From the IMG/VR virus record IMGVR_UViG_3300037067_004901, positions 41,538-105,537 of that record: a DNA stretch of 64,000 nucleotides; one strand, written 5' to 3'. The stretch is from a virus. Taxonomy: Duplodnaviria; Caudoviricetes. How positions within the stretch are numbered: position 1 is the stretch's first letter; each line of letters starts with the position of its first letter. The notes beneath the pieces were generated by a model that saw only the letters and a program-made list of their open reading frames with translations, did no database searches and was not told the origin of the DNA. Shown here piece by piece: positions 4,169-16,309 of the stretch. The position numbers and the translations under genes are program-made.

Positions 4169-4588
4169 TTACTTCTTTGCTTTTGCTTTCGTTGTTGTCT
4201 TTGATGTCTTCTTGACTTTCGACATCTTGACAAGCGACGCTTTGACTTCTTTCTTACGTCTATCGTTTGACGCTGTAAAAGCGTCTTTGTTTAAGAGCTT
4301 CGCTATCGACGTATGAACTTTGTCATAGTGCGTGTTTTTCGTTAACATCGCTTTGCGTGCTTGTGCGTCGAGATGCTCGACTAACAAGAACTTGTTAGCG
4401 ACGCTTGTAAACTCTTTGAACGTGCGCGCGCTTTTTAGCTTTGCGCTGTCTTGCGCGTCGAACACATAAGCACGCTTTTCGCTTGTGTTGTCGCTGTATA
4501 AGCGAACATAAGAGAGAGCGACTTTATTTTTTATCTGCGACGCTGTTAAATTCAGCACTTTCAAAATCATCTTTTTGAGTTTTGACAT
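4169..4588 (-). CDS. Basic protein lacking Gly/Pro/Trp/Cys, in GG/CC-free tract
   Basis: Own promoter, Lys-rich tail, paralog of 2334..2657. Confidence 0.75.
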   Translation of the reverse strand: MSKLKKMILKVLNLTASQIKNKVALSYVRLYSDNTSEKRAYVFDAQDSAKLKSARTFKEFTSVANKFLLVEHLDAQARKAMLTKNTHYDKVHTSIAKLLNKDAFTASNDRRKKEVKASLVKMSKVKKTSKTTTKAKAKK

Positions 4589-5462: not shown

Positions 5463-5538
5463 TGCGGGATGGACAAGTGGTTAAGTCGATTGGCTCATAA
5501 CCAATATATCATGGGTTCAAATCCCATTCCCGCTACCA
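5463..5538 (+). tRNA. tRNA-Met(CAT), initiator-like 1:72 mismatch
   Basis: Cloverleaf, anticodon arm ATTGG-CTCATAA-CCAAT, TTCAAAT T-loop, CCA. Confidence 0.9.
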
Positions 5539-5540
5539 AT

Positions 5541-5816
5541 TTGTCGCTGTGTGTCACGCACTAGAACGCACGATGTTTTTGCTACTCATCGTAGTTATAA
5601 ATCATAGACCCAATGATACATATGTTTAATCATGTAGATGTGTATATCTGAAGCACAGACTTGAAGATATCTAGAGCGACGATTATTTGGGTGCGACAAC
5701 TTTGCCCAGCTATTTAGTTGTTGTATGTATGATTATCTCGATAAGAGCATATACCCGTCAAATAGCTATGGTATACGCGCGGCGGCGTGGAATCGCGTTG
5801 AGCATTGAGACACGCA
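5541..5816 (+). ncRNA. Candidate structured RNA between tRNA-Met and groEL
   Basis: Multiple nested stems and a possible 5'/3' pseudoknot. Confidence 0.45.
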
Positions 5817-5844
5817 TTTTAAAAATAAGAAAGGAGATTTTTGA

Positions 5845-7473
<1,629 letters not shown>

Positions 7474-7504
7474 AATTTTTTTATAGATAAGGAGACTTTT
7501 TTTA

Positions 7505-8332
7505 ATGCAAGTCGTTGATTTATCAAAAAAACAAGAATTAGAAAAATTTGATGTTAAAGTAAGCGAAGAACTTATTGTAGCGATAAGTCAATACAAGAGT
7601 ATTGATTATACAAAATCGGCTATAGAAGCATTAAAGAAAGAGGGCGTTAAGTTTACAACGCTCATTTTGTTTGATGGTAGTTCTGATGAAGATTATGAGA
7701 AAATTCAGAATCTTGCTGATATAAGCATTCGAATAAAGAAACGGATAAATAGCTTACCACAAATATGGAACATCATGTTTGGCGCAGCCAAGCTCACCGC
7801 GGCTAAATATTTGTATTGGCAAGGTTCTGATATGTTATTAAACGAGCATGGTTTAGAAAATATGCTCATGACTATGAAGTTAGGTTATGACGCAGTAAGT
7901 CCAATTAAAATTGATAATGATGTTGAAAGATTTAAAAATTATAAAAGAGTTTATAATCGCGTAATGCGATGTGCTGGTATAAATGATAGCGCATGTCTAT
8001 TTCGTTTAGATAAGCTAGACTTTTTTTGTTTTGATGAAATGTATGCGCCGTATCAATTCGAGACAAGCGCGTTGGGTTATGCGCTGTTTCGTAAAAAATG
8101 CAGAATGTGCATAGATGATAACGCTGTCATATTACATTATTGCAGTAAAGATATAGAGCATAGCCCAAAAGAGCGTGAAATCGGAAGTAAAACTTGGGAT
8201 ATGAAGCGCGATTATTTTTTAAAAGACGCAAGTGAAGATAAGAGATGGTTCTTTGAAAAATCTATAATGAACAGCGAAATCGTAAAAGATATTGGGTTCC
8301 CAGCGCATATTTATTTAGGAGACCCAAAATGA
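7505..8332 (+). CDS. Glycosyltransferase, GT2-like
   Basis: ILFDGSSD and YWQGSDML resemble GT-A motifs. Confidence 0.55.
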   Translation: MQVVDLSKKQELEKFDVKVSEELIVAISQYKSIDYTKSAIEALKKEGVKFTTLILFDGSSDEDYEKIQNLADISIRIKKRINSLPQIWNIMFGAAKLTAAKYLYWQGSDMLLNEHGLENMLMTMKLGYDAVSPIKIDNDVERFKNYKRVYNRVMRCAGINDSACLFRLDKLDFFCFDEMYAPYQFETSALGYALFRKKCRMCIDDNAVILHYCSKDIEHSPKEREIGSKTWDMKRDYFLKDASEDKRWFFEKSIMNSEIVKDIGFPAHIYLGDPK

Positions 8333-9387
8333 ACATACTAGTTTGTGTCGGAGCAAGTGAACCGAGTTATACGAGTAGCAAGAGTTTTATTAGAGCGTTA
8401 AAACGCGCTGGGTATGATGTCAGAACGTGTGGTGCATATTATAAATACGATAGAGAACGCACAGAACAAGTCGATTTTGAATTAGAAGACAAATGTTTTC
8501 CAGAATTATATACATATGAAGAAGTATTAAAAAGCACTAAAGATTTTAAAGCAGATATTATATTACAAATAGAACCACATTTTTATTTATGTGGGGAAAA
8601 ACCAAAAGATATAAAAAGTTATTATTGGATTCTAGACCCACATCGAGGTGGTTATGCATACAGAAATCTTGCTAAACAAGGTGATTTTAATGCATTGTTT
8701 ATGTCGCAAACTTATTTTTCTGATAGTTATTTAGAATTTGCAAAAAAAATTTATTTCTTTCCACAAGCAGTAGATATAGATAGAATTAAATATGATGAAA
8801 ACATTAAAGCAGAATGCGACATCGCGTTTATCGGTGAAACAGGCATTGCAGATAGATGCATGAGATACGACAAACGAGATGCAGATAATTATGAATATAC
8901 GAATTTAATTAATGATAATTATATATTAGATTCAGAAATATATAAAGATTACGCAGAAAGAGCGAAATTGTTAATGTTGTTATCTCGTGGCTTTGATGTT
9001 CGTATATATAAAAAGAATTTTAATACAGATTATTCTAAAATAATACAAAAAGGTAAAATTGCTTTTCATCGTAGTTTATTTAAAGATATAACATTGCGAA
9101 ATTTTGAATCTTTAGCTTTAAAGCGTGCGCTTGTATGCGATTACGTACCGAATCTAGAAAAGTTGATGATAAACTATAAGCATTGTCTTATGTATAAAGC
9201 TTTTGGATTCAATACAGAACTTGAAAACTTTAAACTTGATTATGAACAGGCGAAAGAAGCTGTTGACATTTTGCTAAAAGATGATAAAATGAGAAATGAT
9301 ATTGCAGAGAATGCGTATCAACATGTTATGAAATATCATACTTTTGATAATCGCGTTAAAGAAATGATGAGCGTTATTACGGGATAG
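8329..9387 (+). CDS. Glycosyltransferase (CgeB/DUF3880-like GT-B)
   Basis: DIAFIGE, RNFESLA, IAENAYQHVMKYHTFDNRV. Confidence 0.75.
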   Translation: MNILVCVGASEPSYTSSKSFIRALKRAGYDVRTCGAYYKYDRERTEQVDFELEDKCFPELYTYEEVLKSTKDFKADIILQIEPHFYLCGEKPKDIKSYYWILDPHRGGYAYRNLAKQGDFNALFMSQTYFSDSYLEFAKKIYFFPQAVDIDRIKYDENIKAECDIAFIGETGIADRCMRYDKRDADNYEYTNLINDNYILDSEIYKDYAERAKLLMLLSRGFDVRIYKKNFNTDYSKIIQKGKIAFHRSLFKDITLRNFESLALKRALVCDYVPNLEKLMINYKHCLMYKAFGFNTELENFKLDYEQAKEAVDILLKDDKMRNDIAENAYQHVMKYHTFDNRVKEMMSVITG

Positions 9388-9468
9388 GGTAATTGGTAGC
9401 CCAGCAGACTTTGAATCTGCCAGAACAAAATAGTTCGCGTGGAAGTTCGAATCTTTCTCCCGTAACCA
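9378..9468 (+). tRNA. tRNA-Gln(TTG) with long variable arm
   Basis: TACGGGA/TCCCGTA acceptor, GCAGA-CTTTGAA-TCTGC, ~20-nt variable region, TTCGAAT, CCA. Confidence 0.85.
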
Positions 9469-9652
9469 AAAAAGATAGGAGAGAATGATATGTATAAAGT
9501 AACAATAAAACTAAAGAACGTTGATTCTGTAGTTTATGATGATGTAGAAGATTATGATATTGACGAAGTTACTATAGATTTAAGCATTGGTGAAAATAGG
9601 AAAATAATTTTTCCTCTTATTAATGTAGAATCAGTAGATATAGCAAAGTTAG

Positions 9653-9916
9653 ATGAATCTTAAAAAAATGAAGATTATTTTAAGAAACGAGAATATAGAA
9701 CAGATGAGAAAGCGTCACGAAAAAGAAATCGAGACGCTTCAGAAGAAATGTAAACATAAAGAAATTAGTGACTGGATGGAGTATCATTTTGCAATTGGTC
9801 ACTTTTCGCATTATGTAAAAGTTTGTAAATATTGTGGTAAAATTATAAAAGAAGATAAACCGAAATTCGTAACACATAATATAGGATTTGAAAAAGCAGT
9901 TAAATTGGGGGATTAG
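9653..9916 (+). CDS. Hypothetical Cys/His-rich protein
   Basis: CKH...CKYCG. Confidence 0.55.
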   Translation: MNLKKMKIILRNENIEQMRKRHEKEIETLQKKCKHKEISDWMEYHFAIGHFSHYVKVCKYCGKIIKEDKPKFVTHNIGFEKAVKLGD

Positions 9917-9983
9917 TAGCTAACTGGGAAAACATGTGCTTTGCAAGCATGAATTATCGGTTCGAATCCGATATCCTCCACCA
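9907..9983 (+). tRNA. tRNA-Ala(TGC)
   Basis: G3:U70 identity pair, TGC anticodon, CCA. Confidence 0.92.
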
Positions 9984-10171
9984 AAAAAAGGAGTGAAAGA
10001 AAGTGAAAAAAGCAAATAAGACGATACGACGCGAAAAAATAGCAGTAATCAATGCATGGATGAATAAATTCCCATGTAAAAATTATTTTAAATATCAAGA
10101 TGGCGGTTGTATTCATGACCGTATTAATGCACGCGAAATATATAATTTTATAGAAGCAAAATTTAGATAAT

Positions 10172-10248
10172 CAGGACGTGGGCTAGTTTGGTAAGTCACT
10201 CGGCCTGGGACCGAGTAATCGCTGGTTCAAATCCAGCCGTCCTGACCA
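10172..10248 (+). tRNA. tRNA-Pro(TGG)
   Basis: CAGGACG/CGTCCTG, CTCGG-CCTGGGA-CCGAG, CCA. Confidence 0.88.
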
Positions 10249-10339
10249 ATTTTAATAGAGATAATATGATTGAAATATGCGAGTTGTGTAAAGAATGTCC
10301 ATATAAGAATATTTGTACTGAAACAGATAAATATGTGGA

Positions 10340-10681
10340 GTGTATATGACAGATGAAGAAATATTACAAAAAGTAATCATCAAAGCAGAGAAGAATGGGT
10401 ATAAAGGTCATATGCAGTATCTTCCCATGTTTCTCAAACGAGACCCAAGTAAAAAGAAAAAACTTTCTAAAAAAGATTTCATGAAGTTTATGTCTCGTAT
10501 TTGGTTTATTCATAAGAACGATATAATTTACTCACACGAATTTGCAAAAGCGTTTTTTGGTGAAAAAAAACATATGGAGTGTTGTGGGTCATTAGGTAAT
10601 AATTTAAAAGAATATCAATATTACTTAATGTGGTTAGTTAAAATTCCACACCCTATAATAGAACTGGAAAAATTTTTATGA
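10340..10681 (+). CDS. Hypothetical phage protein
   Basis: ORF track; IIYSHEFAKAFFG. Confidence 0.6.
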   Translation: MYMTDEEILQKVIIKAEKNGYKGHMQYLPMFLKRDPSKKKKLSKKDFMKFMSRIWFIHKNDIIYSHEFAKAFFGEKKHMECCGSLGNNLKEYQYYLMWLVKIPHPIIELEKFL

Positions 10682-10785
10682 CAATAAAAACTGTAATAAA
10701 GAATGGTAAAATTGTAATTAAAGATAAACATATCACACATAGACCAAAAAAATCACCGTGTGGTCAAAGAGTTAAAAAAATATGA

Positions 10786-10862
10786 GCGCGGTTTGTGTTA
10801 ATGTTCGAGCATGTCAGTCTTCCAAACTGAAGGGGAGAGTTAAAGTCTCTCACCGCGCACCA
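10786..10862 (+). tRNA. tRNA-Gly(TCC), atypical D/T loops
   Basis: GCGCGGT/ACCGCGC, TCAGT-CTTCCAA-ACTGA, CCA. Confidence 0.85.
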
Positions 10863-10867
10863 AAATT

Positions 10868-11143
10868 ATGAAACTATTAACATTATTTTCTATATCTATA
10901 ACATTAATTAGTTTTCAGTTCGGATTTTTCTTTATCCAACAGCAACACAATGAATATAAGATGAATGATATTTTGAATTATTGTGAAAAAGTTAAGGATA
11001 AACTTGATATCAGTATTATAGATGAGCAAATTACAAGAAAAGAAGCTCAAATTTATATTAAATCAATACAAAAAGATATAGAACGTAATAGTGTAATAAA
11101 AAAACGCCCGCATAGCTTAGTTGGTAAAGCAGTAGTTTTGTAA
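10868..11143 (+). CDS. Hypothetical membrane protein
   Basis: N-terminal hydrophobic helix. Confidence 0.5.
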   Translation: MKLLTLFSISITLISFQFGFFFIQQQHNEYKMNDILNYCEKVKDKLDISIIDEQITRKEAQIYIKSIQKDIERNSVIKKRPHSLVGKAVVL

Positions 11144-11180
11144 ACTTCAGACAGCCGTTCGATTCGACTTGTGGGCTCCA
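11106..11180 (+). tRNA. tRNA-Thr(TGT)
   Basis: GCCCGCA/TGTGGGC, TGT anticodon, TTCGATT, CCA. Confidence 0.85.
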
Positions 11181-11377: not shown

Positions 11378-11719
11378 ATGCACGAAGAAATAGTAAAAAA
11401 ACCATGGGGCGAAGAATCAATTCTGCATATAACAGATAAAACGAAGTTAAAATATATATCTGTTAAGAAAGATGAAGCATTAAGTTTACAATATCATGAG
11501 AAAAAAAGAGAATTTATCGTTTGTATTAGCGGTGAAGTTCTTATACAAGTAGAAAATGATGTATTTAAGTGCAAAGAAAACGATAATTTTTTTGTAGATG
11601 TAAATAAAAAACATAGAATCGTAGCAATTACTGATGTAGAAATAGTTGAACTATCTGTTGGTGATGATAGTGATATTATACGAATAGAAGATAAGTATGG
11701 ACGCACAACAAAAGTATAA
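11378..11719 (+). CDS. Cupin, mannose-6-phosphate isomerase type II-like
   Basis: KPWG...LSLQYHEKKRE...HRI...DIIRIEDKYGR. Confidence 0.8.
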   Translation: MHEEIVKKPWGEESILHITDKTKLKYISVKKDEALSLQYHEKKREFIVCISGEVLIQVENDVFKCKENDNFFVDVNKKHRIVAITDVEIVELSVGDDSDIIRIEDKYGRTTKV

Positions 11720-11885
11720 AATACTGAACAAACTAGCGTATAATTGCGCAGAAATATATAAATATTTTCACACACCAAAATCAAATGACTTTAATTGGAA
11801 GAAAGCAGAAGAAGCACTTGAATTAGATAAAAGAATAAATGGCGAAGATTTTTTATTATGTATGTTAGAGGAGACTAATGGCTAA
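11697..11885 (+). CDS. Hypothetical protein
   Basis: ORF track, operon packing. Confidence 0.45.
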   Translation: MDAQQKYKILNKLAYNCAEIYKYFHTPKSNDFNWKKAEEALELDKRINGEDFLLCMLEETNG

Positions 11886-12048
11886 AATTAAAGTTTTAAT
11901 CAATAAAAAGAACGCAGAAGGTTGTGATACAGGTGATAGAATAACAGTCGAAGCAGATTTTTTAAAAGATAATGCTACGAACATTCTAGTGAAATTACCA
12001 GATGGTAATATAGTCACCAGAAAAAAGAAACGCGATATAATAATGTAA
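11878..12048 (+). CDS. Hypothetical protein (56 aa)
   Basis: SD GAGGAG before ATG. Confidence 0.5.
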   Translation: MAKIKVLINKKNAEGCDTGDRITVEADFLKDNATNILVKLPDGNIVTRKKKRDIIM

Positions 12049-12088
12049 TTAAGGAAATAGCAGTTTAATAAAAATTTTAAAAAAATAC

Positions 12089-12117
12089 TTGACAAAATCA
12101 CATTTATGTGTTATACT
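12089..12117 (+). promoter_or_regulatory. Consensus sigma70 promoter for the Zn-ribbon/Y-RNA/TROVE unit
   Basis: TTGACA-17 bp-TATACT with TG. Confidence 0.8.
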
Positions 12118-12166
12118 TACTATAATAGAAAAGAAAACGTAAGATTATTTAAAAATCGGGGATAAA

Positions 12167-12403
12167 ATGGCAGAAAATGAAAAGGATTTTAAAGTTAATA
12201 TAAAATGTCCATCTTGTCAAACTATAAATAAAGTAGACTATTCTACTTTTAAGATGGCAATGCTTGCAAACCATTTTTATAGATATACATGTGATAATGA
12301 TAAATGTAAATCAAGATTTTTAGTTACTTATAAAATGATGTTTGTACCAATCAAAAGCAATCAGCTCCCTGAACAAGCTTTTGAATCTTTGATAATCGAA
12401 TAA
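12167..12403 (+). CDS. Zn-ribbon protein
   Basis: CPSC...CDNDKC. Confidence 0.65.
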   Translation: MAENEKDFKVNIKCPSCQTINKVDYSTFKMAMLANHFYRYTCDNDKCKSRFLVTYKMMFVPIKSNQLPEQAFESLIIE

Positions 12404-12407
12404 GATT

Positions 12408-12491
12408 TTGGGTGGCGTAGATGAGACTTACTTCGTATGATACACGCATGTGGCGTCGAGCCACAGTCTGTTTCATCGCTTGTTCCCCCAA
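12408..12491 (+). ncRNA. Y-RNA-like unit 1
   Basis: GGTGGCGTAG...TTACTTC...CGCTTGTTCCC, paired ends, upstream of TROVE. Confidence 0.75.
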
Positions 12492-12498
12492 TTCATTT

Positions 12499-12587
12499 TA
12501 AGGTGGCGTAGATTAGGGTTACTTCATACTCAGAGAGTTCGGGCAATTTCCCGGACATAAAAAGTCCCTTATCGTTTGTTCCCCTTA
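12499..12587 (+). ncRNA. Y-RNA-like unit 2
   Basis: GGTGGCGTAG...TTACTTC...CGTTTGTTCCC. Confidence 0.75.
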
Positions 12588-12594
12588 TTAAAAT

Positions 12595-12655
12595 TGCGGT
12601 GACGTAGGCAAGACATACTTCGGCTATGAAAAAGTCTTGTCGCTTGATTCCCGCA
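12595..12655 (+). ncRNA. Y-RNA-like unit 3 (minimal)
   Basis: GGTGACGTAG...ATACTTC...CGCTTGATTCCC. Confidence 0.7.
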
Positions 12656-12667
12656 TCGTTCTTTTAA

Positions 12668-13005
12668 AACTGTATTGGGTGCCGTAGAATACGTGATACT
12701 TCGTATACTGACAAGTAATGTAAGCGCATAATAAATGAGATATAAGCGCGCTTGATATTTAATGATATAAGAATAGACTTACAAAGTTGAAAACTTGTAT
12801 CATTATGTAAGCAAAGCATTCTTCTACATGTCTTGCATGCGACATTGCTTTTATAGAATGTGTAACAATAAGATGTGACGGTAAACCGCGTTATAAATTG
12901 TCATGTGAACGCCTAGCGTGAGCATAGACAACTTACTATAACAGTTAAGGTTCCCAGCCGTTAAATGGACCAAGCTCACTGTTCGCTTGTTGCCCCTATA
13001 TAGTT
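12668..13005 (+). ncRNA. Y-RNA-like unit 4 with ~280-nt insert
   Basis: GGTGCCGTAG...ATACTTC...CGCTTGTTGCCC with an extended terminal stem. Confidence 0.65.
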
Positions 13006-13029
13006 CTAAAATAAAAAAAGGAGATAAAA

Positions 13030-14553
13030 ATGTCAAGATTTAATCAATCTACAAAAACTGTAAAATCTTCTAAAACTGTAAATGCAGAAGGTGCAGAAGC
13101 ATACACTTTAACACCAAAGTTAGAGTTGTATTCGCTTGCTTGTACTTTTCTTGGACAGGATAAATTTTATGAGAAAGCAGATAAGCAATTAAAAAGGCTT
13201 GTAGAACTGATTAAAAAGAATGACCCGGAATTTGTCGCGAAATTGGCTGTATATGTTCGCGAGAAAATGTATTTGAGAACATTACCACTTGTATTGTCTG
13301 TTGAATTAGCCAAAGTACATAGTGGTGACAATCTAGTATCTCGTGCTGTTGAGCGCGTTATACAACGTGTTGATGAATTAACAGAGATACTTGCATATTA
13401 TCAATTTTCAAACAACAGAAAGGATGTAAAAAAACTTTCTAAACTTTCCAAACAAATCAGATTAGGTATTGCAAATGCTTTTAATAAATTTGATTCTTAT
13501 CAATTCTCTAAATATAATCGAGATAATGAGATTAAACTAAAAGACGCTTTATTTATTTCGCATCCGTTTCCAAAAGATAACAAACAAGAAAATATTTTTA
13601 AAAAGATAGTAGATGATACTTTAGAAGTTCCATATACTTGGGAAGTAGAGCTATCGCGTTTAGGTCAACAAAAGTTCGATACAGAAGAAGCGAAAGCAGA
13701 AGCAGTTTCTAAGAAATGGGAAGAACTGATAGCTAGCAATAAACTTGGTTATATGGCTACTCTAAGAAATTTAAGAAATATCTTGGATGCTAAAGTCTCT
13801 ACTATTTATATAGAGAAAGTCTGTCAGTATTTATCGAATGCAAAAGCTGTAAGAAATTCCAAACAGTTACCTTTTAGATTTTTCTCTGCATATAGAGAAT
13901 TAGAAGGGAATGCTTCGAAACATACTGACAAAATACTTTTTGCTTTAGAAGAAGCAGTTAAGATAAGCATAGAGAACATACCAACCCTTAATGGTGATGT
14001 TCTGATTGCTTGTGATGTGTCTGGGTCTATGCAAACTCCTATCTCTGCTAAATCTAAAGTTGAACGTTACGATATTGGGTTATTGTTAGGACAGTTGTTA
14101 AGATTGAAATGTGAAAACAATATACTTGGTATCTTTGGAGATACGTTTAAAGTAAAAAGAACAACTAGCAAAGAACTACTATCGAATACAATGAGACTTC
14201 ACGATATTGAAGGCGAAGTAGGGTATTCTACTAATGGTTATCTAGTGATAGATTGGTTGATAAAAAACAAAGTAGTGATGGATAAAGTAATAATGTTCAC
14301 TGATTGTCAGATGTGGGATAGTAGATATGGGAACACTCAAAACTTCGCTGATTATTGGAGAACATATAAACAGATTGCACCAAAAGCAAAACTTATTCTC
14401 TTTGATATGGCTGGATATGGAAATACTCCTATAGACACAAAAACAAATGATGTGTATTTGATAGCAGGATGGAGTGATAAAATATTCGATATGATAGAAG
14501 CATATGAAAATAAAGAAAGTGCTGTCAAAGAAATAGAAGCGATGGAGATATGA
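13030..14553 (+). CDS. TROVE-domain RNA-binding protein (Ro60/Rsr ortholog)
   Basis: N-terminal NAEGAEAY, LGYMATLRNLRN, PFRFFSAY, vWA MIDAS DVSGSM, FTDCQ, IAGWSD. Confidence 0.93.
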   Translation: MSRFNQSTKTVKSSKTVNAEGAEAYTLTPKLELYSLACTFLGQDKFYEKADKQLKRLVELIKKNDPEFVAKLAVYVREKMYLRTLPLVLSVELAKVHSGDNLVSRAVERVIQRVDELTEILAYYQFSNNRKDVKKLSKLSKQIRLGIANAFNKFDSYQFSKYNRDNEIKLKDALFISHPFPKDNKQENIFKKIVDDTLEVPYTWEVELSRLGQQKFDTEEAKAEAVSKKWEELIASNKLGYMATLRNLRNILDAKVSTIYIEKVCQYLSNAKAVRNSKQLPFRFFSAYRELEGNASKHTDKILFALEEAVKISIENIPTLNGDVLIACDVSGSMQTPISAKSKVERYDIGLLLGQLLRLKCENNILGIFGDTFKVKRTTSKELLSNTMRLHDIEGEVGYSTNGYLVIDWLIKNKVVMDKVIMFTDCQMWDSRYGNTQNFADYWRTYKQIAPKAKLILFDMAGYGNTPIDTKTNDVYLIAGWSDKIFDMIEAYENKESAVKEIEAMEI

Positions 14554-14972
14554 TTGAACAGTTTTCAAAAGAATATATAAATTTTTTAGAAAAGAATAAA
14601 CTATTGCCACTGGATGAAACTGCAAAATATCTAAATATACACCCCGCAACGTTACGTACATTAGTTAAAAGAAACGAAATAAAAAGTGTAAAAATAGGTA
14701 AAAGATATTATTTTAATTTAGAAGATATTAAAAATAATAACAGTAAAGTTGTGTATCCAAGTGGCATAAGTGTTAGTAATGGATATCTGAAAGTTCTTGT
14801 TGGAAAAGATTTCCCAAACGCTGATTTAGATGGATATATTGCTTTACATAAATTAATATTAGAAGCTTCTTTATTAAGACGATTATTACCAACAGAAGAA
14901 ATACTTCATAATGATGGTAATACTATGAATAATTTATTAAGTAATTTATTAATAAAGATAGTAAATTCGTGA
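14550..14972 (+). CDS. Excisionase-type HTH fused to degenerate HNH domain
   Basis: ETAKYLNIHPATLR...KIGKRY; GYIALHKLI...EEILHNDGN...NLL. Confidence 0.65.
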   Translation: MIEQFSKEYINFLEKNKLLPLDETAKYLNIHPATLRTLVKRNEIKSVKIGKRYYFNLEDIKNNNSKVVYPSGISVSNGYLKVLVGKDFPNADLDGYIALHKLILEASLLRRLLPTEEILHNDGNTMNNLLSNLLIKIVNS

Positions 14973-15160
14973 TTAAAGAAAATATAAAAAATAATTTTTA
15001 CAATAAAAAATGTTGTTTTATATGTAAAAAAATATTTACAAAAAGAGATAAAATAGAAAATAATATAATCGAAGTTTTTGATACATCATTTGGTTGTGCC
15101 GTTAAAATACATAAACAGCACAACAATTTTTTTGTAGGAGGTATGGATAATGCCATATAG
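14969..15160 (+). CDS. Hypothetical protein
   Basis: ORF track, overlapping starts/stops. Confidence 0.45.
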   Translation: MIKENIKNNFYNKKCCFICKKIFTKRDKIENNIIEVFDTSFGCAVKIHKQHNNFFVGGMDNAI

Positions 15161-15404
15161 TTCTATTAATGAAATACCTGATTATGTAAAAAAGAAAACA
15201 AAAAATTCTAAAAAACGTAGACAATGGATGCAAGTTTTTAATAGTGTATATAGACAAACGAGAAGCGAAGCACGAGCTTTCGCGGCAGCTAATGCAGTAA
15301 TGAGTAGAAAGAAAGAATATACAAAAGAAGAAGTAAATAGTATTATCAAAGATTATATAAATTGTAATAGAAAAGGTAAGTTTATAGAAGAAGATGAAAT
15401 ATAA
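15150..15404 (+). CDS. ChaB-like protein
   Basis: MPYSSINEIPDYVK...WMQVFNSVY...EARAFAAA. Confidence 0.65.
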   Translation: MPYSSINEIPDYVKKKTKNSKKRRQWMQVFNSVYRQTRSEARAFAAANAVMSRKKEYTKEEVNSIIKDYINCNRKGKFIEEDEI

Positions 15405-16309
15405 TGGCCGTAGAAAAAAGAAAAGAATCTGTTGATTTTTCTGATAAAGAAAAAGATAATATCAATACTGAATCAGAACAAAACAAAGATAATATTGTTA
15501 TTGCAGTAGAGCCATTGGTATCACACAAAAGAAATGCTTTAAAATTTGATAGTGGTAAAATATCTGATTTAAAATATCTAGAAGATATATTTTCTTCAGA
15601 TTACGATAAATTTCATTCATTAGATTTTTTAAAAAAAATTCATGCCGAATTACTCTCACAAGGATATCCACAAACCCCAGCATTAAACGAATATTTATTT
15701 TGGACAACCATTTCTAGAAGAATGCAGATTATCTATCAAGAAAATCATAAAAAAGAAATGGGAGAATTAGAAGAAGGTGAATCCTTAAAAGGTATTGAAG
15801 ATTTAAAATTCTTAGATTCATTACAAAGTGTAGCTGAACATGTTACGGCATTGCAAAAAGTTATAGATGTTTCTTTAGAGACAGCTAAACAAGTTAAAGA
15901 TGTTGTAGATTTACATAAAGAAACATGTGAACGAGCAGAAAAGTTTTTAGCGGCACATTTTGGGGAATATGTAAAGAGACATTCAGCTAGTGGTAAAATA
16001 ACAGATATCATAGATAAAGCTTATTGGGCTTTTATACAGGATGTTATTTATAAAGAAGATGGTATAGAAAACGTAGATTATGTTTGGTCTGAAGAATTAA
16101 AATTTTTAATTGATAAAAAAATAATACCAGTAGAAATTATGGCTTTTATATTGCGTACTAGTATAGAATCATTGTATAATACTGCAAAGATTAGAAAAGA
16201 TGAAATGATAGAAATTGACAAAGAAAAAGCTGAAAAAAATCTAAAAGAACTTATGTTAGAATTTGAATTATTACGTGATGCAAAAGATAGAGAAATATTA
16301 GAGAAATGA
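15404..16309 (+). CDS. Hypothetical protein (possible terminase small subunit)
   Basis: Immediately upstream of TerL; position only. Confidence 0.4.
   Translation: MAVEKRKESVDFSDKEKDNINTESEQNKDNIVIAVEPLVSHKRNALKFDSGKISDLKYLEDIFSSDYDKFHSLDFLKKIHAELLSQGYPQTPALNEYLFWTTISRRMQIIYQENHKKEMGELEEGESLKGIEDLKFLDSLQSVAEHVTALQKVIDVSLETAKQVKDVVDLHKETCERAEKFLAAHFGEYVKRHSASGKITDIIDKAYWAFIQDVIYKEDGIENVDYVWSEELKFLIDKKIIPVEIMAFILRTSIESLYNTAKIRKDEMIEIDKEKAEKNLKELMLEFELLRDAKDREILEK

What the first reader, a model, noticed from the sequence alone, without database searches (positions are those of the whole stretch)
12408..14553. Phage Ro60/TROVE gene preceded by a tandem array of four Y-RNA-like scaffolds with variable payloads
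Seen: four consecutive units share the layout GGTG[GAC]CGTAG - stem - [TA]TACTTC - variable - stem' - CG[CT]TTG...CC. The inner stems differ in sequence but still pair (GATGAGAC/GTTTCATC, GATTAGGG/CCCTTATC, GGCAAGAC/GTCTTGTC, GAATACGTGA/TCACTGTTC), which is covariation within one locus. Payloads are about 35, 40, 12 and 280 nt; units 1 and 2 carry T-arm-like hairpins (TGTGGC-GTCGA-GCCACA; GTTCGGG-CAATTT-CCCGGAC). The array lies between a consensus promoter with a Zn-ribbon gene and the TROVE gene. Known: Ro60/Rsr binds the bulged terminal helix of Y RNAs, bacterial Yrl RNAs lie beside rsr and can be tRNA-like, and they tether Ro60 to effectors such as PNPase. Inference: a modular phage RNP with a constant Ro60 handle and exchangeable cargo acting as decoy, adaptor or guide, processed from one transcript.
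Basis: partly seen in the sequence, partly recalled or inferred. Interest (0 to 1): 0.88.

Follow-up and report, generated by a model that had tools for sequence, protein, structure and literature searches.

The report
Four Y-RNA-like genes before phage Ro60
A phage carries four small RNA genes in a row, all sharing the docking stem that Ro60-type ring proteins are known to bind, directly in front of its own Ro60 gene. This is a real but fairly ordinary example of a protein-RNA pairing already described in bacteria and phages.

Summary
Four head-to-tail units (12408-13000, + strand) share GGUGNCGUAG, an 8-10 bp stem and WUACUUC at the 5' side, and stem', CGYUUGWU-N'-CCC at the 3' side. Both helices show compensatory changes. 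The units fill the non-coding gap before a TROVE + vWA (Ro60) gene.

A covariance model built only from other loci finds units 1-3 at 51-58 bits and nothing else in 64 kb. Unit 4 has exact half-motifs around a 272-nt non-coding insert.

The same handle recurs on the Ro60 strand in about 69 of 80 viral Ro60 loci (188 hits, arrays up to 8). It also gave 427 hits in 80 Bacteroidota loci. In four whole genomes all 19 hits lie beside rsr.

Most relatives carry the permuted tRNA-like domain of YrlA (Rfam RF02553, matched below threshold). The four units here carry none and do not match RF02553.

They are therefore handle-only Y-like RNAs, comparable to YrlB or to Thermus phage phiLo Yrl1/Yrl2. That makes them a new member of a known kind. 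This scan has noted similar arrays on other DNA.

Ro60 binding, processing and function are inferred. The guide reading and the T-arm likeness found no support.

The parts
12089..12117 (+). sigma-70-type promoter-like site (TTGACA, 17 nt, TG-TATACT). It is the candidate start of the transcript that carries the small ORF, the four RNAs and the Ro60 gene.
   Evidence: 11 of 12 consensus positions, the best site in 11500-15500. This is a consensus match only. No terminator-like site lies between it and the Ro60 gene except a hairpin inside unit 1.
12167..12403 (+). 78-aa ORF with CxxC...Cx4C (possible zinc ribbon). It is probably not part of the conserved system.
   Evidence: ORF. MJ0042-type zinc finger at E 0.0035, below the cut-off. 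No Pfam or PHROG family. tblastn found no homologue in any of the 160 other TROVE loci.
12408..12491 (+). Unit 1, a handle-only Y-like RNA of about 84 nt. Its payload holds one hairpin (stem 12449-12465).
   Evidence: Model R1, built without window sequences: 58.1 bits, E 1.5e-13, full model ends, tRNA-like middle skipped. Fold.
12499..12587 (+). Unit 2, a handle-only Y-like RNA of about 89 nt. Its payload holds one 7-bp hairpin.
   Evidence: R1: 56.4 bits, E 4.1e-13. Fold.
12595..12655 (+). Unit 3, a minimal Y-like RNA of about 61 nt. It consists of the handle, an internal loop (AUACUUCGG... / A-rich strand) and no further domain.
   Evidence: R1: 51.3 bits, E 9.6e-12. MFE equals centroid, z -1.95. 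Similar minimal units exist in L008, L014, L029, L089 and L109.
12673..13000 (+). Unit 4. The 5' handle strand is at 12678-12703 and the 3' handle strand at 12975-12996. They enclose a 272-nt AT-rich non-coding payload (12704-12975) of unknown nature.
   Evidence: Both half motifs are exact. The inner stem G12687..A12696 pairs with T12976..C12984, with one bulged C. N/N' is C12682-G12992. No other partner motif lies in between. The unit is too long for R1 to report. The payload has no ORF of 30 aa or more on the + strand, no Rfam match at E<=10 and no similar DNA in the other loci or in phage records.
13030..14553 (+). Ro60/Rsr-type protein (TROVE HEAT-repeat ring plus vWA domain with a DxSxS MIDAS motif). 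It is the presumed partner of the four RNAs.
   Evidence: Pfam PF05731 7.9e-27 and PF25045 5e-10. About 60% identical to Bacteroidota Ro60. Nearest solved structure is Thermus phage phiLo Ro60, 9KOP/9L5Y, E 1e-26 over residues 16-500. D329, S331 and S333 are invariant in alignment A1.
14550..14972 (+). HTH plus HNH endonuclease-like ORF that overlaps the Ro60 stop codon by 4 nt. It is a neighbour, not shown to belong to the system.
   Evidence: Pfam HTH_17 5.2e-11. PHROG HNH endonuclease families at 1e-7 to 6e-4.

Best explanation
The 626-nt gap before the phage Ro60 gene encodes four small non-coding RNAs of the bacterial/phage Y-RNA (Yrl) kind. Each closes its 5' and 3' ends into the same handle. 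The handle is a terminal helix GG-(bulged U)-G-N paired with N'-C-CC, then an internal loop carrying CGUAG on one strand and CGYUUGWU on the other, then an 8-10 bp stem, then WUACUUCG. This is the non-tRNA half of YrlA-type RNAs: the published Rsr motif GNCGAAN0-1G appears here as GNCGUAG, and YUAY appears as UUAC or AUAC. I infer that the handle is the docking site for the phage's own Ro60 ring. I also infer that the RNAs are made with the Ro60 mRNA from the promoter at 12089 and cut or trimmed into separate RNAs of about 61 to 325 nt. The middles differ: two single hairpins, one minimal loop and one 272-nt domain. None is tRNA-like. By analogy with Deinococcus Yrn1 and Thermus phage phiLo Yrl1/2, the variable ends would gate Ro60 or tether it to host partners such as PNPase, re-aiming host RNA decay or surveillance during infection. 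What is shown: the motif, covariation, linkage to Ro60 genes and absence of a tRNA-like domain. What is inferred: expression, processing, Ro60 binding and the partner.
For: The four units and their exclusivity in the record are shown. Model R1 was built from 56 units of other loci only. It scores units 1-3 at 58.1, 56.4 and 51.3 bits with filters off; the next hit in 64 kb scores 16 bits and is a real tRNA. The handle is tied to Ro60. There are 188 hits in 80 viral TROVE loci, 187 of them on the TROVE strand, in about 69 loci and mostly abutting the gene. There are 427 hits in 80 Bacteroidota rsr loci. In four whole genomes of 3.7-8.4 Mb all 19 hits sit in one cluster within about 1.3 kb of rsr. 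Covariation was counted on 109 hits from loci not used to build the model. There, 96.8% of cells pair against 43-51% when the partners are slid, and all 24 pairs show double changes. Flank, T and D helices that I did not select on also covary. The motif agrees with Chen et al. 2014 (PMC4201824). tRNA-bearing relatives match Rfam YrlA RF02553 at 49 and 39 bits. The protein is a full Ro60 whose nearest solved relative is phiLo Ro60. That protein binds two phage Yrl RNAs and forms a complex with host PNPase (PMC12135203).
Against: The units do not match Rfam YrlA or Y_RNA even at E<=10. R1 does not match the published phiLo Yrl1/Yrl2 region, so the link to experimentally bound RNAs rests on a short motif and on genomic linkage. 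Single-sequence folds are only mildly better than shuffles (z -0.7 to -2.0). Unit 4 is inferred from its two halves, not from a model hit. The PNPase partner is pure analogy. The units here lack the T-arm end implicated in PNPase contact in Deinococcus.
Confidence: 0.8

Rival explanations
1. The four elements are not separate RNAs. They are cis-acting Ro60-binding sites in the 5' leader of the Ro60 mRNA, giving autoregulation of translation or stability.
For: They lie between the promoter-like site and the Ro60 start with no convincing terminator. Unit 4 ends about 20 nt before the Shine-Dalgarno sequence.
Against: Position relative to the gene is not conserved. In Bacteroidota the arrays lie downstream of rsr, and in phages L001, L007 and L008 they also lie downstream. 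That fits trans-acting RNAs. Relatives with the same handle carry complete tRNA-like domains of the YrlA type, which are known stable RNAs (PMC4201824).
Confidence: 0.07
2. They are decaying remnants of YrlA genes that have lost their tRNA-like domain and no longer function.
For: Only 6 of 49 independent loci with hits, including this one, lack any unit with a T or D arm. The hairpins of units 1 and 2 sit where relatives have a T arm.
Against: All four handles are intact and match the family consensus at every invariant position. Their stems differ by compensatory changes rather than random decay. Handle-only units make up 29 of 109 independent hits and recur as a class of minimal units.
Confidence: 0.05
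3. The handle is recognised by some other factor, such as an RNA-processing or tRNA-related enzyme, and merely travels with Ro60 genes.
For: Binding was not tested. R1 does not recognise the phiLo RNAs that were shown to bind Ro60.
Against: Genome-wide the handle occurs only beside rsr. No second protein is conserved with it: neither the Zn-ribbon ORF nor the HNH ORF recurs in the other 160 loci. The 5' motif corresponds to the published Rsr contact motif.
Confidence: 0.05

Closest known systems
YrlA-type bacterial and phage Y RNAs (Chen et al. 2014, PMC4201824; Rfam RF02553)
   Same: They are encoded next to and on the strand of a Ro60/Rsr gene. A 5' motif GNCG(A/U)AG is followed by a stem and YUAY, and the 5' and 3' ends pair. 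Several can occur per locus. Relatives carrying exactly this handle contain the T / closed-acceptor / D permuted tRNA-like domain and hit RF02553 at 39-49 bits.
   Different: The four units here have no tRNA-like domain and no RF02553 match at E<=10. The motif has U where YrlA has A. The 3' strand (CGYUUGUU-N'-CCC) is conserved too, whereas Chen et al. state that only the 5' strand is recognisable in the Salmonella and M. smegmatis RNAs.
Thermus phage phiLo Yrl1/Yrl2 with phiRo60 (PMC12135203; PDB 9KOP, 9L5Y)
   Same: It is a phage-encoded Ro60 with tandem Y-like RNAs that are simple stem-bulge-stem RNAs without a tRNA mimic. The protein is the nearest solved relative (E 1e-26). Ro60 binding and a ternary complex with host PNPase are shown experimentally.
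   Different: phiLo has two RNAs defined by CGAA motifs, and the R1 handle model does not detect that region. The proteins share only about 26% identity.
Salmonella YrlB, Deinococcus Yrn1/Yrn2 and metazoan Y RNAs (RF00019)
   Same: The logic is modular: a Ro60-binding bulged terminal helix plus a variable effector module. YrlB is a short Y RNA without a tRNA-like domain. Like Yrn1 and animal Y RNAs, both strands of the handle helix are conserved and one pyrimidine is bulged.
   Different: No sequence-level or covariance-model match was found. Per Chen et al., YrlB orthologues were found only in other S. enterica serovars. The array size and the 272-nt payload have no counterpart there.

Membership tests
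Y RNA in the broad sense (Ro60-associated non-coding RNA) | Encoded beside a Ro60/TROVE gene on the same strand (the rule in bacteria and phages) | tested here: met
   The units at 12408-13000 abut the TROVE gene at 13030. The handle family is restricted to rsr neighbourhoods in 4 whole genomes, and 187 of 188 viral hits lie on the TROVE strand.
Y RNA in the broad sense (Ro60-associated non-coding RNA) | 5' and 3' ends pair into a helix that carries the conserved Ro60-contact motif (GGUCCGA in animals; GNCGAAN0-1G in bacteria) | tested here: met
   GNCGUAG is present in all four units, one substitution away from the published motif. The terminal helix with a bulged U covaries.
Y RNA in the broad sense (Ro60-associated non-coding RNA) | Physically bound by Ro60 | not testable with these tools
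   This needs pull-down or EMSA with the window's protein.
Y RNA in the broad sense (Ro60-associated non-coding RNA) | Accumulates as a discrete small RNA | not tested
YrlA (Rfam RF02553) | Permuted tRNA-like domain (T arm, closed acceptor-like stem, D arm) | tested here: not met
   R1 aligns units 1-3 only by skipping 54-66 model positions that include the T and D stems. ARAGORN and Rfam find no tRNA in 12400-13030.
YrlA (Rfam RF02553) | Score at or above the family's gathering threshold (69 bits) | tested here: not met
   There is no RF02553 match at E<=10 in 12050-13100. The best in the whole record is 17 bits, elsewhere. Relatives with tRNA-like units reach only 39-49 bits.
Ro60/Rsr protein | TROVE HEAT-repeat ring followed by a vWA domain with a MIDAS motif | tested here: met
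   Pfam PF05731 and PF25045 both score above their cut-offs. DxSxS is invariant. PDB relatives are 9KOP, 1YVP and 2NVO. The NCBIfam Rsr equivalog is far below its cut-off (43 versus 900 bits), so this is a Ro60-family member, not an Rsr equivalog.

The most novel reading that the evidence does not exclude
The handle-plus-cargo arrays are an expandable adaptor library for Ro60 that the literature has under-counted. They average about 5 units per Bacteroidota rsr locus and reach 8 in phages, and no Rfam family recognises handle-only units. In this phage the library has dropped tRNA mimicry altogether. It has instead acquired a 272-nt cargo that is a new structured RNA domain recruiting a different host factor, so the phage Ro60 particle works by a route other than the tRNA-like / PNPase one.
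Probability: 0.15. Interest if true: 0.65.

Novelty: new member of a known kind. Interest (0 to 1): 0.38.

Why it matters
Ro60 and Y RNAs are a long-studied particle whose bacterial and phage roles are still poorly defined. This locus adds a clean case in which the Ro60 docking handle is kept while the tRNA-like part is absent from every unit. That separates the two modules naturally.

The by-product may be more useful than the locus itself. It is a handle model that finds hundreds of units exclusively beside Ro60 genes, most of them missed by the curated YrlA family. It gives a defined consensus with both helix strands for binding and structural work, and it shows that multi-unit arrays are the rule in Bacteroidota and their phage relatives.

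For phage biology the locus points to reprogramming of host RNA decay or surveillance. That idea is testable with the phiLo system as a template.

Tried and rejected
- **Rfam on the window.** Searches at gathering score and at E<=10 gave no Y_RNA, YrlA, intron or other family in the array.
- **Similar DNA in phage records.** Near and distant DNA searches of the locus against 50,697 phage records gave no match.
- **Unit 4 payload.** It has no homologue in 165 loci or in the window, no ORF of 30 aa or more on the + strand and no tRNA-like piece. Its nature is left open.
- **Guide reading.** The payloads have no complementarity to the rest of the window beyond chance, so this reading was rejected for lack of support. 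Host RNAs could not be tested because the host is unknown.
- **T-arm likeness of units 1 and 2.** Neither hairpin has a 7-nt T-loop consensus, and the model does not align them to the T arm.
- **Zn-ribbon ORF and HNH ORF as system parts.** Neither recurs in the other TROVE loci.
- **phiLo link.** R1 does not hit the published upstream Yrl region and gives only two weak downstream hits.
- **Host.** GroEL and a 542-aa ORF gave no informative phage relatives.
- **Literature.** One search on arrays in Bacteroidetes returned only off-topic papers. The supplements of Chen et al. 2014 and two reviews are not held, so I could not check how many units per Bacteroidota genome were already tabulated.

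Full report
**What is there**

The window comes from a 105.5-kb IMG/VR virus record estimated to be 60% complete. The stretch 12404-13029 is non-coding on the + strand. It lies between a 78-aa ORF with CxxC...Cx4C (12167-12403) and a 507-aa gene (13030-14553). That gene has a TROVE domain (7.9e-27) and a Ro60-type vWA domain (5e-10).

The gap holds four units. The 5' motif GGTGNCGTAG occurs at 12411, 12502, 12598 and 12678 and nowhere else in the whole record. The 3' motif CGYTTGWTNCCC occurs exactly at 12477, 12573, 12641 and 12984. With one mismatch allowed there were 5 matches against 1.29 expected, and 0 of 100 shuffles reached 5. WTACTTC follows each 5' stem.

**Anatomy read from the sequence**

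- The terminal helix is 2-4 flank pairs, then G-C, G-C, a bulged U, G-C and N-N'.
- N-N' is G-C, G-C, A-U and C-G in units 1 to 4.
- An internal loop follows, with CGUA on the 5' strand and GYUUGWU on the 3' strand.
- Next comes an inner stem of 8-10 bp whose sequence differs in every unit but still pairs. Unit 4 needs one bulged C.
- Then comes WUACUUCG and a variable middle of about 32, 38, 12 and 272 nt.

Single-sequence folds recover these helices but are only modestly better than shuffles, with z from -0.7 to -2.0. The case therefore rests on comparison, not on energy.

**Independent test**

The Ro60 protein is about 60% identical to Bacteroidota Ro60 proteins. I fetched 80 viral and 80 bacterial loci that encode relatives.

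A plain regex already showed the same 5' motif in several copies on the Ro60 strand near the gene. I aligned 56 non-redundant units taken only from other loci (A2) and built covariance model R1.

One caveat applies. My parser required inner-stem and N/N' pairing, so those two helices are biased in A2. The flank pairs, the T stem and the D stem were not selected on, and they covary as well.

With filters off, R1 finds unit 1 at 58.1 bits (E 1.5e-13), unit 2 at 56.4 bits and unit 3 at 51.3 bits. All three matches reach both model ends. The next hit in 64 kb scores 16 bits and lies on a true tRNA-Pro.

Unit 4 is about 325 nt and is not reported; no R1 hit listed exceeds 231 nt. Its two halves are exact consensus and pair with each other, and no alternative partner motif lies between them.

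**Linkage to Ro60**

- In the 80 viral loci R1 gives 188 hits at E<=1e-3. Of these, 187 lie on the TROVE strand, in about 69 loci by my count from the table. They usually abut the gene and form arrays of up to 7-8, as in L027, L051 and L077.
- In the 80 Bacteroidota loci R1 gives 427 hits at E<=1e-4, mostly just downstream of rsr, with 8 or more in some loci.
- In four whole genomes of 3.7-8.4 Mb, all 19 hits fall in a single cluster within about 1.3 kb of rsr. Only 150 first-look candidates per genome were scored.
- On 109 hits from loci that did not contribute to the model, 96.8% of cells pair, against 43-51% with slid partners. All 24 pairs show double changes. That alignment is fitted to the model, so the slid control is the fair comparison.

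**What kind of RNA this is**

Most relatives carry, inside the same handle, a T arm, a closed acceptor-like stem and a D arm. That is the YrlA architecture of Chen et al. 2014. The paper also describes the 5' motif GNCGAAN0-1G as the likely Rsr contact and YUAY at the start of the variable loop. Here these appear as GNCGUAG and UUAC or AUAC.

Rfam holds YrlA as RF02553. The lead to that accession came from earlier notes of this scan. tRNA-bearing relatives match it at 49 and 39 bits, below the 69-bit threshold and mainly through the tRNA-like part.

The four window units do not match RF02553 at all. In the R1 alignment their T and D columns are empty. They are therefore 'YrlA minus the tRNA mimic'.

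Handle-only units are common: 29 of 109 independent hits. An array with no tRNA-like unit at all is rarer: 6 of 49 loci with hits. Chen et al. reported at least one tRNA-like Y RNA in each species. This 60%-complete record shows none.

**Mechanism**

The protein is a complete Ro60 with an invariant MIDAS DxSxS motif. Its nearest solved relative is Thermus phage phiLo Ro60 (E 1e-26). That protein binds two phage-encoded Yrl RNAs lying next to its gene and forms a ternary complex with host PNPase (PMC12135203).

From this I infer the following. The four RNAs are transcribed with the Ro60 mRNA from the near-consensus promoter at 12089-12117 and separated by host nucleases. Each docks on the phage Ro60 through the handle. 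The different distal parts gate the ring or tether it to host partners.

The 'guide' variant has no support, because the payloads show no significant complementarity to the phage window. The host is unknown. The cis-leader rival is unlikely because arrays sit on either side of the gene in relatives.

**Novelty**

Y-like RNAs beside Ro60 in more than 250 bacteria and 22 phages, sometimes several per locus, have been in print since 2014. Tandem phage Yrl RNAs that bind a phage Ro60 were published in 2025. A Listeria phage paper even speculates along these lines.

This scan has also noted handle-sharing RNA arrays beside Ro60-like genes on other DNA many times. The locus is therefore a new member of a known kind.

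These points may be under-described:
- the size and ubiquity of the arrays;
- conservation of both handle strands, where Chen et al. saw only the 5' strand in the Salmonella and M. smegmatis RNAs;
- the lack of any curated family for handle-only units;
- the 272-nt payload of unit 4.

I could not check the 2014 supplementary tables or the 2020 review.

**Limits**

The nearest Ro60 relatives are only 60-64% identical, so conservation of the payloads could not be tested.

Noticed in passing
L006:4640-4770: In a related viral contig (Ro60 60% identical) an Rfam tRNA hit of 47 bits spans the end of one unit and the start of the next. It has an acceptor stem and D arm, then the 3' handle strand, a 4-nt loop and the 5' handle strand, then a T arm. 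This looks like a tRNA whose anticodon arm is replaced by the Ro60 handle, a circular permutation of the YrlA layout.
   Followed up: partly
L029:1783-3970 and L030:355-2542: The closest viral Ro60 match (64% identity in the best segment) spans 2188 nt for 507 residues. That implies an insertion of about 660 nt inside the Ro60 gene (intron, intein or endonuclease). Its upstream array has four units, one of them tRNA-like.
   Followed up: no
L169:4015-4079 and 4206-4284 (Thermus phage phiLo, MH673673.1): The handle model gives two weak hits (14 and 7 bits, both with GGGUACUUC) just downstream of phiRo60, overlapping the annotated CDS phiLo_25. The published Yrl1/Yrl2 were defined by CGAA motifs upstream. 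These may be further candidate Yrl RNAs, or chance.
   Followed up: partly
window 1-64000: 64% of ORFs of 100 aa or more have a Shine-Dalgarno-like 4-mer at -18..-4, against 7% at random positions. GC content is 31%, and the promoter at 12089 is of sigma-70 type. Because Bacteroidia mostly do not use SD pairing (cf. PMC9976891 abstract), the host may not be a Bacteroidia, although the Ro60 is closest to Bacteroidota proteins.
   Followed up: partly
window 5463-11180 and 5845-7473: Six tRNA genes (Met, Gln, Ala, Pro, Gly, Thr) and a phage GroEL chaperonin (PHROG 5725, 3e-169) lie just upstream of the array. The Ro60 module thus sits at the end of a translation and RNA auxiliary region.
   Followed up: no
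window 14550-14972: An HTH plus HNH endonuclease-like ORF overlaps the Ro60 stop codon by 4 nt. An HNH endonuclease is also annotated next to the Ro60 homologue of uncultured phage cr112_1.
   Followed up: no
L086-L165 (Bacteroidota rsr loci): Arrays of YrlA-like units downstream of rsr average more than 5 per locus, with 8 or more in L125, L156 and L164. This is well above the 1.3 per genome implied by the 355 RNAs in 276 genomes of Chen et al. 2014.
   Followed up: partly
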